Below, piece after piece: positions 56,754 to 60,482 of a DNA stretch of 64,000 nucleotides (within the stretch, counting starts at the first letter, position 1; every line of letters starts with the position of its first letter). The position numbers were made by a program, and so were the translations under genes. The stretch lies in sequence record PZ386970.1; one strand, given 5' to 3'. Source of the stretch: a phage. The notes under the pieces were generated by a model. That model saw nothing but the letters and a program-made list of their open reading frames with translations. It made no database searches and was not told the origin of the DNA.

Positions 56754-59700
56754 ATGGCTACATTAAAACAGATACAATTTAAAAGAAGCAAAGTGGCAGG
56801 AGTTAATCCTACTGCAGCACAATTAGCCGAAGGCGAATTAGCGATAAACTTAAAAGACCGAACTCTTTTTACTAAAGATGACCTCGGTAATATTATTAGC
56901 CTAGGCTTTGCTAAGGGCGGGGATATTAACGGTAATGTAACTCAAACCGGCGATTATTTACAAAACGGCACATATAATCTTAATGGAAACCAGTTTGTTT
57001 ATGCAGGAAAGTATATTGAATTCTTGCCAAAAACTGCTGGAAACGGCGCCTGGGCTAACCAACATCTGAATAAAGCCCCTATCTTTACAGATTTGAGTTC
57101 AACTACTTCAACTTCTGAATATCATCCGCTGATTAAACAACGCTATAAAGATGGAACTTTTTCTGTCGGTACATTAGTAAATGAAGGAAGTTTTAAGATT
57201 CATTATATCAATGAATCTGGGGATTCGAAATATTGGACTTTTAATCGAAACGGTAATTTCATCGTAGATTCTGGTAGTATTGAAGTTCGTGCTGGTAATA
57301 TTTCCGCTTCTGGAAATATTAATTCAGCTACTGGTGTAATTTCTGCACCTCGTGTTATCACAAAAAATATTAATTTAAGTACAAAGACTTTTATTCCTAA
57401 TAACGACGCTGGGTATGATTTAGTTTCTTTGCCTACTTGGATTTATAATCCGCCGGCAGATGGTTCTGACCGTAATACAAATGGTCTTAACTACATCCGT
57501 AAGATGAGGGCTTCAAATACTTCTAGTATTTTCCATGAAATAGTTGATTGTCGTTCAGGAAAGCCACAAGAAATTTCTTGGTGGACAGGCGTAGGTCCAG
57601 AATCTTTCCAATGGGCGTTTGATACTTCTGGGCGTATTACCGCAGGTAAATCTATTTCAGTAGGTCTTCCTGATAACGGTTCAAATGGACGTTATCCTTT
57701 AGATTCTGCCATTTCTATTGGTATTGCAATTGGTGATAACGACACCGGTATTAAATGGGTCCGCGACGGTGTTATTGATTTCATGGCTAACGGTATTTCA
57801 TCCGCTACCATTTTGAATAACGGTATTAACAGCACCAAGAAATTGATGGTTGGTTATAGCCGAGATTCAGGTTCTACTTGGGATTTCCCAAATAACAACC
57901 AAGCAATGTTTACTGCTCGTACTGATATTGATGGCAATAATAACGGTGATGGTCAGACTCATATCGGTTATAACAGCAATTCTAAAATGTATCACTATTT
58001 CCGTGGCACGGGTCGTATGGCTGTTGGTATGGCAGAAGGTTTAATTGTTGAGCCTGGCATTTTAGATATTAAAACCGGTTCAAATTCGTTAAATTTGCGT
58101 GCTGATGGTACCATCGCTTCGGTTCAAACGTTAAAACTTAATAATGGATTATATTTTAATGGTGATGGAACTAATGCTTCTCTAGTTTTTAAAGCAGCTT
58201 CAGGTATTGATGGTACTAAGCAAATAATGTGGGAAGGTGGTACTCGTGCTGGGCAGAATAAAAGCTACGTAACTGTTAAAGCATGGGGTAATTCATTTAA
58301 CGCATCCGGCGATCGTAATCGTGAAACTGTATTTGAAGTTAGTGACGGGCAAGGATATTATTTTTATTCACAGCGTGTGGCTCCAAGTGGCTCTGAAACT
58401 ACTGGGCCTGTTGTAACCCAGTTCAATGGACAAGTTAATGCTAGAGGAAGCTTAATAACCGACGGAAGTCTTAGAGTTAACGGATTAAGCACTCTAGTTG
58501 GCAACGTTACAATGAATAATGGATTGTTTGTTCAAGGTGGTGCCTCAATTACCGGACAGGTTAAAATTGGTGGAACAGCTGATGCATTAAGAATTTGGAA
58601 TGCTGAATACGGGGCTATTTTCCGCCGCTCGGAAGCATCATTATATATTATTCCGACTCCTAAAGATGCTGGTGAAAGCGGTGGAATAAGTAATCTTAGA
58701 CCATTGATAATAGAACTGAACACTGGCACAGTTAAAATGTCGCATGATGTTCATTTAGGAGATTCTGGATCTGGTACAGGATTATTACAAGTAAGTAATA
58801 GTCTTAAAACTATTAAAATGATATGCCCAGTAACTATTAACGAACGTAATGCAGCGCTTACTCTAGATTCTCCTTCATCTTCTTCTGCTAATTATTTACA
58901 GGGTTCTAAAGCTGGAACTAGATCGTGGTATGTTGGTCTTGGTGGCTCAGGAAATGATTTATCACTTTATAGTCAATCTTATGGCCATGGTATTGTTATA
59001 AGCGATAATTTCGTGTCAATTACTAAACCATTAAAAGTTGGTAATGCTCAATTCGGTACCGATGGTAACATCACTGGCGGTACTGGTAATTTTGCTAACT
59101 TGAATACCACAATAAATAACCTTAAGACGGATATTGTGTCGAGTTACCCAATTGGTGCTCCGATTCCTTGGCCTACTGATACACCTCCTGAAGGTTATGC
59201 CATAATGGAAGGCCAGACGTTTGATGTTGGCTTGTATCCTAAGTTAGCTGCGGTGTATCCTTCTGGCGCTCTGCCTGATATGCGTGGTCAGACGATTAAA
59301 GGTAAACCATCTGGGCGTGCTGTATTGAGTACAGAAGCAGACGGTGTTAAGTCACATAGTCATAGTGCAAGTGCATCAAGCACAGATTTGGGTACTAAGA
59401 CCACTTCTAGTTTTGATTACGGTAGCAAAACGACTTCAAGCTTTGATTATGGTACTAAGACCAGTAATACCACTGGCAACCACAACCATACAGTGAGTGG
59501 TAATACTAGTTCAGCAGGAGCTCACCAACACGCTCGTTCAGGCCCTCAAATGCAAGGCGGCATACCAACTAGCATATTCTATGATGGATACAATAGCGCG
59601 GGTCCAAACGGCAACGCTAAAATCACTGGAACCGTGAGTGGTGCTACTGCATCGTCGAATATGGCCAAAACTTCTTCAGATGGTGCCCACACCCACAGTT

Positions 59701-59900
59701 GGTCAGGAACCACTAGTGCTACGGGTAACCATGCTCATACCGTGGGTATTGGTGCTCATACCCATTCGGTAGGTATTGGTGCTCATACTCATACTGTTGC
59801 AATTGGTTCCCATGGACATACAATAACTGTAAATGCCACAGGAAATACAGAAAACACAGTTAAAAACGTTGCTTTTAACTATATCGTTCGTTTAGCATAA
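56754..59900 (+). CDS. 37: Long tail fibre distal subunit gp37 (receptor-binding needle with His-X-His repeats)
   Basis: 1048-aa ORF (T4 gp37 1026 aa); N-terminus shares motifs with gp34/gp36; C-terminal repeated HxH motifs ([24 protein letters not shown]). Confidence 0.9.
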
Positions 59901-59930: not shown

Positions 59931-60482
59931 ATGAAACTCTATCACTATTATTTTGACACTAAAGAATTTTACAAAGAAGAAAATTATAAACCATTAAAAG
60001 GCGTAGGATTTCCGGCTCATTCGACACCAAAAAAACCTTTAGACCCTAAAGAAGGCTATGCTGTTATATTTGACGAACGCGAACAAGAATGGGTATATGT
60101 TGAAGACCATCGCGGAAAAACAGTATGGACTTATGATAAACAAAAAATTGTTATTGACACTCCAGGTGCTCTTCAAAATGTTACTACAGAAGAACCTGGT
60201 GAATTTGACATTTGGACCGACGACGGGTGGAAGGAAGATGAAGCATATAAACGTGTAGTTCAACGTGATAAGAAAATTCATGAACTCTATAAATTATTCA
60301 GTGTTTTAAGTTCTCTTATTGACGCAGAGGTTGCTAATAGAGAAGAAAAACGAAAATTTAAAGAGCTCAAAAAATTCTTTGCCCTTTTAGAAAAACATGA
60401 ACATCTTGGCGGCGAATTCCCTAAATTCCCTGACCTTGAAAACAAATCTATTATCAAAGCGATTATAAATATCTTTAAGTAA
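59931..60482 (+). CDS. 38: Tail fibre assembly chaperone gp38 (T4 type)
   Basis: 183-aa ORF; MKLYHYYFDTKEFYKEENYKP... and FFALLEKHEHLGGEFP match T4 gp38 from memory. Confidence 0.88.
   Translation: MKLYHYYFDTKEFYKEENYKPLKGVGFPAHSTPKKPLDPKEGYAVIFDEREQEWVYVEDHRGKTVWTYDKQKIVIDTPGALQNVTTEEPGEFDIWTDDGWKEDEAYKRVVQRDKKIHELYKLFSVLSSLIDAEVANREEKRKFKELKKFFALLEKHEHLGGEFPKFPDLENKSIIKAIINIFK
60464..60471 (+). promoter_or_regulatory. Late promoter TATAAATA (holin t), inside the gene 38 3' end
   Basis: Exact TATAAATA about 20 bp upstream of the t ATG. Confidence 0.55.

What the first reader, a model, noticed from the sequence alone, without database searches (positions are those of the whole stretch)
59380..59830. 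Tandem peptide repeats and His-X-His arrays in the gp37 receptor-binding tip
The C-terminal region contains the direct repeats [23 protein letters not shown] followed by multiple HxH motifs ([60 protein letters not shown]). In T4-type fibres HxH motifs coordinate metal ions in the needle. The ORF is about 20 residues longer than T4 gp37, and the number and spacing of repeats probably set receptor specificity, so this is a host-range hotspot.
Basis: partly seen in the sequence, partly recalled or inferred. Interest (0 to 1): 0.4.

Follow-up and report, generated by a model that had tools for sequence, protein, structure and literature searches.

The report
Ordinary T4-type tail-fibre needle repeats
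The repeats and His-X-His motifs are real, but they are the known metal-stapled stem of a T4/TuI-type phage tail-fibre tip, in a layout sequenced in 1990, and the loop between the repeats, not the repeats, chooses the receptor.

Summary
ORF 56754-59900 (1048 aa) is gene 37, the distal long-tail-fibre subunit of a T4-like (Mosigvirus-like) phage, followed by a T4-type gp38 chaperone. The C-terminal 248 aa match the T4 gp37 tip crystal structure 2XGF (E 1e-72), where each HxH triplet holds one iron. T4 has one unit and seven HxH.

This layout is not new. TuIa and TuIb (sequenced 1990), phage lambda Stf, JS09 (98% identical needle) and AV112 share it exactly.

HxH motifs as metal sites in the needle is supported. 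Repeat number and spacing setting specificity is not:
- TuIa (OmpF) and TuIb (OmpC) have identical repeat architecture and a 96% identical stem, but only 56% identical tips.
- The same stem carries unrelated tips, and related tips sit on shorter stems.

The repeats are stem rungs. In 256 of 257 homologues, each 10-residue unit in the ascending arm is matched by one 9-residue HxH unit in the descending arm, so both arms stay equal in length. The window therefore has one more rung and probably eight metal sites. The likely receptor is OmpC, by its 81% tip identity to TuIb. Interest is low.

The parts
56754..59900 (+). Gene 37, long-tail-fibre distal subunit, 1048 aa plus stop. It is a mosaic: the shaft is closest to AV112 and the needle to JS09 and AV112.
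59139..59351 (+). Collar (D10) part 1, aa 796-866. Equivalent to T4 811-881. Pfam Collar covers aa 801-848.
   Evidence: T4 domain boundaries from PMC6957217
59352..59531 (+). Ascending arm of the needle stem, aa 867-926 (60 aa; T4 882-931 is 50 aa). Contains HxH-1, two 10-aa FDYG units, HxH-2 and HxH-3.
59355..59363 (+). HxH-1 (HSH, aa 868-870).
59394..59423 (+). 10-residue ascending unit 1 ([10 protein letters not shown], aa 881-890).
59424..59453 (+). 10-residue ascending unit 2 ([10 protein letters not shown], aa 891-900). This is the unit that T4 lacks.
59481..59489 (+). HxH-2 (HNH, aa 910-912).
59523..59531 (+). HxH-3 (HQH, aa 924-926). Equivalent to T4 H929/H931.
59532..59669 (+). Tip (head) subdomain, aa 927-972 (46 aa; 28 aa in T4). 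This is the probable receptor-binding surface. The inter-HxH segment is 52 aa and is 42/52 identical to TuIb and 28/52 to TuIa.
59670..59846 (+). Descending arm of the needle stem, aa 973-1031 (59 aa; T4 960-1009 is 50 aa). Contains HxH-4 to HxH-8.
59688..59696 (+). HxH-4 (HTH, aa 979-981).
59730..59819 (+). Array of four HxH motifs at a 9-residue (27-nt) period: [30 protein letters not shown] (aa 993-1022). T4 has three.
59847..59897 (+). Collar (D10) part 2, aa 1032-1048 ([16 protein letters not shown] end). The chain returns to the collar here.
59931..60482 (+). T4-type gp38 tail-fibre assembly chaperone, 183 aa. It is 67% identical to T4 gp38 and matches Pfam Caudo_TAP. It is not a T2/T6-type adhesin.

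Best explanation
The region encodes the C-terminal receptor-binding needle of a T4/TuI-type gp37. Three chains leave the collar and run about 60 residues up the needle. They form a 46-52 residue tip knob, then run about 59 residues back down to the collar.

The eight HxH motifs are stacked metal sites. At each one, six histidines (two from each chain) hold one ion, which is Fe2+ in T4, and this staples the trimer together.

The KTTSSFDYG units are not receptor-binding repeats. They are the ascending-arm partners of the 9-residue HxHxVGIGx units of the descending arm. One of each makes one rung of the stem. The window has one more rung than T4, so probably eight metal sites instead of seven and a stem about 10 residues longer.

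Receptor choice lies in the tip loop between HxH-3 and HxH-4. That loop is 81% identical to the tip of the OmpC phage TuIb, so OmpC (possibly together with LPS) is the likely receptor. gp38 downstream acts as the folding chaperone.

Shown here: homology to the solved structure, motif positions, and the arm-to-arm coupling of unit numbers. Inferred: metal occupancy, the geometry of the extra rung, and the receptor.
For: - The C-terminal 248 aa match PDB 2XGF (T4 gp37 785-1026) at E 1.4e-72, with all seven T4 HxH motifs aligned.
- T4 has seven irons on HxH motifs, a stem at 882-931 and 960-1009, and a tip at 932-959 that holds the LPS and OmpC contacts (PMC6957217).
- Pfam Collar and gp37_trimer match gp37, and Caudo_TAP matches the next ORF, which is 67% identical to T4 gp38.
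- HxH is far beyond chance: 8 observed against a mean of 1.2 and a maximum of 6 in 100,000 shuffles.
- Coupling rule: in 211 of 211 homologues with a complete stem, the number of 6-residue linkers between descending HxH motifs equals the number of ascending 10-residue units plus one, and the number of 11-residue linkers is equal in the two arms. There are 10 architecture classes, and arm lengths match within 0-4 aa (T4 50/50, window 60/59).
- The rule was replicated in 45 of 46 further unique sequences from viral and genome contigs.
- A simple height model gives an HxH layer every 5-10 residues in every class.
- TuIa and TuIb share the same stem with different tips and different receptors.
- The window tip is 42/52 identical to TuIb.
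- T4-type gp37 tips are the OmpC-binding type among Straboviridae.
Against: - No metal analysis or structure exists for this protein.
- The AF2 monomer model was unusable (pLDDT 54, pTM 0.20), so the trimeric fold and the extra rung are inferred from sequence alone.
- One sequence (L006, an IMG/VR contig with a TuIa-type tip) has two FDYG units but lacks one HxH unit through an exact 27-nt deletion. Either the coupling is not absolute or that contig is an assembly artefact.
- The sequences are related, so 256 of 257 counts sequences, not independent events. Only about 10 architecture classes exist.
- The receptor assignment rests on 81% tip identity. TuIa, with a tip of the same length, uses OmpF, so a few substitutions could change the receptor.
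Confidence: 0.85

Rival explanations
1. One reading: the number and spacing of the FDYG and HxH repeats are themselves the receptor-specificity determinant, so repeat-number change is how this phage shifts hosts.
For: - Copy numbers do differ from T4.
- Stem classes with 1 to 5 FDYG units exist in the family.
- One natural or assembled one-unit deletion was found (L006).
- From memory, not read here: Tetart et al. 1996 (J Mol Biol 258:726) reported T4 host-range mutants carrying duplications in this part of gene 37. Their title is cited.
- Trojet et al. 2011 say that exchanges occur at conserved adhesin motifs.
Against: - TuIa (OmpF) and TuIb (OmpC) have identical repeat number and spacing, with stems 124/129 identical and tips 29/52 identical.
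- AV118 has the same stem and an unrelated tip.
- Related tips sit on stems of different length.
- HxH spacing is invariant across the family.
- T4 receptor contacts map to the tip.
Confidence: 0.07
2. The repeats form a slippage-prone or recombination-prone contingency locus, so copy number varies within the phage population.
For: - There is a 27-nt period array of 2.4 copies at 81% matches, and a 17-nt exact direct repeat at 59745 and 59772.
- L006 lacks exactly one 27-nt unit.
Against: - The two FDYG copies encode identical peptides but differ at 5 of 27 nt, and the same differences are found in JS09 and AV112. The duplication therefore predates these phages.
- Copy number is the same in the window, JS09, AV112, Bas41, TuIa, TuIb and lambda Stf.
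- A change in one arm alone would leave the arms unequal in length.
- No long perfect repeats are present.
Confidence: 0.05
3. Stem length, meaning the number of rungs, is itself adaptive. A longer needle lets the tip reach a porin through a thicker LPS, O-antigen or capsule layer. In this view the extra rung affects host range without changing which receptor is recognised.
For: Stem arms range from 36 to 76 residues across the family while the rung design is kept strictly. That fits selection on length in quantised steps.
Against: - No correlation with host surface structure was tested.
- Both one-unit and two-unit stems occur in E. coli phages and prophages that use OmpC.
- Length classes could be neutral, historical variants.
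Confidence: 0.15

Closest known systems
Phage TuIb gp37 C-terminus (X55191; Montag, Hashemolhosseini and Henning 1990), and TuIa (X55190)
   Same: - Identical architecture: two KTTSSFDYG units, eight HxH, inter-HxH gaps 39, 11 | 52 | 11, 6, 6, 6, and a 26-aa tail.
- 89.9% identity to TuIb over 198 aa.
- T4-type gp38 and then the holin gene lie downstream.
   Different: - There are 20 substitutions in 198 aa relative to TuIb, half of them in the 52-aa tip (42/52 identical).
- The TuIa tip is only 28/52 identical.
- The shaft of the window's gp37 belongs to a Mosigvirus-type mosaic.
T4 gp37 receptor-binding tip (PDB 2XGF; Bartual et al. 2010)
   Same: - Same collar, needle and tip organisation, with E 1.4e-72.
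- All seven T4 HxH motifs are conserved in position.
- The last 48 aa are 92% identical, and the gp38 chaperone is of the same type.
   Different: - The window has one extra 10-aa FDYG unit in the ascending arm and one extra 9-aa HxH unit in the descending arm, giving eight HxH against seven.
- Its tip is 18 aa longer and unrelated in sequence.
- Overall identity is 53%.
gp37 of Mosigvirus phages JS09 and AV112/AV113
   Same: - Needle 98% (JS09) and 97% (AV112) identical over 198 aa, with the same repeat numbers and the same synonymous differences between the repeat copies.
- AV112 gp37 is also 1048 aa.
- The surrounding 24 kb is about 94% identical to AV112.
   Different: - The whole gene is only 88.8% identical in nucleotides to AV112.
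- The JS09 shaft is unrelated in several segments, at 18-48% amino-acid identity.
- The receptor of these phages is predicted (OmpC), not measured.
Phage lambda side tail fibre Stf and lambdoid prophage Stf C-termini
   Same: - Same collar and needle module, with HxH and FDYG units.
- Lambda Stf has the same stem class as the window (39, 11 | 45 | 11, 6, 6, 6).
- These proteins obey the same coupling rule.
   Different: - About 62% identity, with different tips.
- The module is attached to a short, unrelated N-terminal fibre in siphovirus prophages.

Membership tests
T4/TuI/lambda-Stf-type receptor-binding needle (gp37 D10 collar + D11 needle; 2XGF fold) | Significant sequence homology to the solved T4 gp37 785-1026 across collar, stem and C-terminal strand | tested here: met
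   phmmer E 1.4e-72, query 1-248 against chain 32-242; pairwise alignment
T4/TuI/lambda-Stf-type receptor-binding needle (gp37 D10 collar + D11 needle; 2XGF fold) | Phage tail collar domain immediately before the needle | tested here: met
   Pfam PF07484 Collar, aa 801-848, E 3.6e-11, above the gathering score
T4/TuI/lambda-Stf-type receptor-binding needle (gp37 D10 collar + D11 needle; 2XGF fold) | Stacked HxH motifs at the family's fixed spacings (11-residue and 6-residue linkers), with every His conserved | tested here: met
   8 HxH with gaps 39, 11 | 52 | 11, 6, 6, 6. The His columns are invariant in alignments A2 and A4.
T4/TuI/lambda-Stf-type receptor-binding needle (gp37 D10 collar + D11 needle; 2XGF fold) | Each HxH triplet binds one metal ion (Fe2+ in T4) | not testable with these tools
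   Known for T4 only (PMC6957217). Eight sites here is an inference.
T4/TuI/lambda-Stf-type receptor-binding needle (gp37 D10 collar + D11 needle; 2XGF fold) | The chain goes up and comes back: ascending and descending stem arms of equal length flank an inserted tip, and the chain ends back in the collar | tested here: met
   Arms are 60 and 59 aa against 50 and 50 aa in T4, using published T4 boundaries. The C-terminal ...[20 protein letters not shown] is conserved. This is a sequence-level test only.
T4/TuI/lambda-Stf-type receptor-binding needle (gp37 D10 collar + D11 needle; 2XGF fold) | Intertwined homotrimeric fold | tested here: inconclusive
   Only a monomer prediction was possible. 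It gave pLDDT 54 and pTM 0.20, which is unusable.
T4/TuI/lambda-Stf-type receptor-binding needle (gp37 D10 collar + D11 needle; 2XGF fold) | A T4-type gp38 / lambda Tfa-type assembly chaperone is encoded immediately downstream | tested here: met
   ORF 59931-60482 is 67% identical to T4 gp38 and matches Pfam Caudo_TAP.
T2/T6-type distal fibre (gp37 capped by a separate gp38 adhesin with glycine-rich motifs and hypervariable segments) | The downstream gp38 is an adhesin of about 260 aa with GRM and HVS segments, and gp37 lacks the HxH needle | tested here: not met
   The downstream ORF is a 183-aa chaperone-type gp38, and gp37 carries the needle. Family description from PMC3157838.
Contingency locus (hypermutable tandem repeat) | Long, near-perfect DNA repeats and copy-number polymorphism among close relatives | tested here: not met
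   Units are 70-83% identical at DNA level and the longest exact repeat is 17 nt. Copy number is identical in JS09, AV112, Bas41, TuIa and TuIb. One 27-nt deletion variant exists in L006.

The most novel reading that the evidence does not exclude
The stem of the T4/lambda-type needle is a quantised two-armed ladder. Ascending 10-residue [10 protein letters not shown] units and descending 9-residue HxHxVGIGx units are gained or lost together, as seen in 256 of 257 sequences. An 11-residue-linker HxH module is likewise added symmetrically to both arms. Needle length and the number of metal sites (5 to 10 in the sequences seen) therefore change in whole-rung steps. This length may be an adaptive, engineerable trait that sets the reach through the LPS or O-antigen layer, independent of tip specificity. 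The coupling itself is shown here. That it is undescribed and that length matters for host range are not shown. I could not read Bartual et al. 2010 to check whether they already noted it.
Probability: 0.2. Interest if true: 0.4.

Novelty: already known. Interest (0 to 1): 0.12.

Why it matters
It matters little for discovery. This is a textbook receptor-binding module, in a layout already sequenced in TuIa and TuIb in 1990 and solved structurally for T4 in 2010.

There are three practical uses:
- Annotation: the host-range determinant of this phage should be placed at the tip loop (59532-59687), not at the repeats.
- Prediction: OmpC is the likely receptor.
- Fibre engineering: tips can be exchanged at the flanking HxH motifs. 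Any change in stem length should add or remove one unit in each arm together.

Tried and rejected
- AlphaFold2 monomer model of aa 801-1048 with a 30-sequence alignment gave pLDDT 54 and pTM 0.20. It is too poor to use, so no fold search was run. The tool cannot model the intertwined trimer.
- Bartual et al. 2010 (PNAS, PMC2996694) is not held. Structural facts were taken from papers that cite it.
- A search for 'His boxes' found no paper, and Tetart 1996 could not be read. What I say about its content is from memory.
- Rfam found nothing in the window at gathering thresholds.
- My first heuristic, taking the longest inter-HxH gap as the tip, misassigned short-tip sequences (categories 1/5, 1/7 and 1/8). 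I replaced it with a grammar that reads back from the C-terminus.
- I first recalled a two-unit sequence as being T4. The tools showed that T4 has one unit and that the recalled sequence is lambda Stf.
- AV118, which has a measured OmpC dependence, could not serve as a receptor proxy because its tip is unrelated.
- The Bas41 receptor is not stated in the text of Maffei et al. 2021.
Full report
**What is there.** The finding lies in ORF 56754-59900 (+ strand, 1048 aa).
- The ORF matches annotated long-tail-fibre distal subunits (gp37) of many T4-like coliphages. The best whole-gene match is Mosigvirus AV112 at 88.8% nucleotide identity.
- The surrounding 24 kb is 93-95% identical to AV112, NRG-P0074 and relatives.
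- Pfam finds Gp34_trimer, gp37_trimer and the phage tail Collar domain (aa 801-848).
- The next ORF (59931-60482, 183 aa) is 67% identical to the T4 gp38 chaperone and matches Caudo_TAP.
- The holin gene t and asiA follow, as in T4.
- This is therefore a T4-type fibre, in which gp37 carries its own adhesin. It is not a T2/T6-type fibre with a separate gp38 adhesin (family description in PMC3157838).

**Check of the observation.**
- KTTSSFDYG occurs at aa 882-890 and 892-900 (nt 59397-59453), followed by TKTS.
- HxH motifs lie at aa 910, 924, 979, 993, 1002, 1011 and 1020.
- All 16 histidines of aa 867-1048 are in HxH pairs, and none of the 9 histidines upstream is.
- In 100,000 shuffles of the C-terminal 182 aa the mean was 1.2 HxH and the maximum 6, against 8 observed.
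- At DNA level the repeats are old. The 30-nt and 27-nt units are 70-83% identical. The two copies that encode identical KTTSSFDYG peptides differ at 5 of 27 positions, all synonymous, and JS09 and AV112 carry the same differences. The longest exact direct repeat is 17 nt.

**Relation to the solved structure.** The C-terminal 248 aa match PDB 2XGF (T4 gp37 785-1026) at E 1.4e-72.
- In T4 the collar D10 is residues 811-881 plus 1010-1026.
- The needle D11 is an insertion into the collar. Its stem is 882-931 (up) and 960-1009 (down), and its tip is 932-959.
- Seven irons lie along the needle. Each is held by HxH histidines of the three chains, for example H929 and H931.
- Receptor contacts for LPS and OmpC map to the tip (PMC6957217).
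- Transferred by alignment, the window's domains are: collar aa 796-866 and 1032-1048, ascending stem 867-926, tip 927-972, descending stem 973-1031.
- Relative to T4 the needle has three insertions: +10 aa (a second FDYG unit) in the ascending arm, +9 aa (an extra HxHxVGIGx unit) in the descending arm, and +18 aa in the tip. The shaft is 15 aa shorter on balance, which gives the net +22 aa.

**The architecture is not new.**
- TuIb gp37 (X55191, from Montag et al. 1990) has exactly the same layout: two FDYG units, eight HxH, and inter-HxH gaps of 39, 11 | 52 | 11, 6, 6, 6. It is 89.9% identical over 198 aa.
- TuIa (X55190) has the same layout. So do BASEL phage Bas41, JS09 (98% identical) and AV112 (97%).
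- Phage lambda Stf has the same stem class.
- In the phage collection, 55 records are at least 90% identical to this 198-aa segment.

**What the repeats do.** I parsed the needles of 268 proteins: the 265 homologues returned by two searches, plus the window, T4 and TuIb. Of these, 211 have a complete stem.
- Two relations hold in all 211. The number of 6-residue linkers between descending HxH motifs equals the number of ascending 10-residue FDYG units plus one. The number of 11-residue linkers is the same in both arms.
- Ten architecture classes occur, with 1, 2, 3 or 5 FDYG units and 0, 1 or 2 of the 11-linker modules.
- The two arms always match in length within 0-4 residues. T4 is 50/50, which equals the published stem boundaries. 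The window is 60/59.
- I placed each HxH at its distance from the collar along its own arm. This gives a metal layer every 5-10 residues in every class. For the window the layers fall at 2, 10, 19, 28, 37, 44, 51 and 58.
- In the lower stem the core layers come only from the descending arm's 9-residue units. The FDYG units are the ascending arm's stretch alongside them.
- The window's two 'extra' repeats are therefore one event in structural terms: one more rung. The inference is an eighth metal site and a stem about 10 residues longer.
- In an independent set of loci from IMG/VR and GTDB genomes, 45 of 46 further unique needles obey the rule. In one of these (L113) a His has been lost from one unit. 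The single exception (L006) is covered in the closing paragraph.

**What sets specificity.** The repeats do not.
- TuIa and TuIb use different porins: OmpF, and OmpC (given as OmpC/LamB), as summarised in PMC9659904. I also know this from Datta et al. 1977.
- They have identical repeat number and spacing. Their stems and collars are 124/129 identical and their tips only 29/52 identical.
- AV118, whose OmpC dependence was measured (PMC10844046), has the same stem as the window and an unrelated 32-aa tip.
- Tips of the window's family (ARSGP...IF.DGY...AKTSSDGA) also occur on one-unit stems such as P0005.
- HxH spacing is invariant across the family.
- The host-range hotspot is therefore the tip. 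[quoted passage not shown]
- The window's tip is 42/52 identical to TuIb and 28/52 to TuIa. Since T4-type gp37 is the OmpC-binding type among Tevenvirinae, OmpC is the likely receptor, at about 0.6 confidence.

**Rivals.**
- A slippage-prone contingency locus is unlikely. The units are diverged at DNA level, the copy number is fixed across distant relatives, and a change in one arm alone would leave the arms unequal in length.
- The conserved HxH-coding DNA may still serve as a crossover site for swapping tips, as Tetart and Krisch proposed for conserved adhesin motifs (cited). Their 1996 paper could not be read here.
- Stem length as an adaptive trait is possible but untested.

**Limits.**
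- No trimer model could be made, and the AF2 monomer was unusable.
- Metal content and receptor are inferred.
- The homologue counts are of related sequences, not independent events.
- I could not read Bartual et al. 2010, so I cannot say whether the arm-to-arm coupling has been described before.

**Verdict.** This is a known kind of feature in a known architecture, and the interest is low.

**The one exception to the coupling rule.** L006 is an IMG/VR contig with a TuIa-type tip. It lacks exactly one 27-nt HxH unit. This is either a real one-arm deletion or an assembly collapse.

Noticed in passing
L086-L099 and L117 (genome-contig loci): Identical lambda-Stf-type needles (62% identical to the query) sit on very low-coverage contigs, several of about 48.4-48.5 kb. 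The assemblies belong to unrelated bacteria: Shewanella, Pseudomonas, Chromatium, Neobacillus, Paenibacillus, Bradyrhizobium, Kitasatospora and others. This looks like phage lambda control or contaminant DNA in public genome assemblies, not genuine prophages.
   Followed up: no
L006 about 1940-1970 (IMGVR_UViG_3300030021_000020); equivalent to window 59772-59798: This is a T4-like contig with a TuIa-identical tip and two FDYG units. It lacks exactly one 27-nt HxHxVGIGx unit relative to the window, AV112 and TuIb. It is the only exception to the arm-coupling rule, and is either a natural unequal-recombination product or an assembly collapse.
   Followed up: partly
L113 (Escherichia albertii NBRC 107761 prophage tail fibre): One descending unit reads AYSHS instead of AHxHx. 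One histidine of a putative metal site has been lost while the unit count and arm lengths are kept.
   Followed up: no
window 56754-59150 (gp37 shaft): Gene 37 is a recombination mosaic. Against JS09 the first 150 aa and the needle are 94-100% identical, but aa 201-500, 551-600 and 651-750 drop to 18-56%. Against AV112 the whole protein stays at 80-100%. No deposited phage has this exact allele; the best whole-gene match is 88.8% nucleotide identity.
   Followed up: partly
L109 (E. coli ECGI0523 prophage): The collar and first FDYG region of this prophage Stf look scrambled (…SASDQYGFGPKPHRSFDYG…, first gap 28 instead of 29). This suggests a decaying or frameshift-repaired copy.
   Followed up: no
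window 1-64000: No Rfam family reached its gathering score anywhere in the 64-kb window, on either strand.
   Followed up: yes
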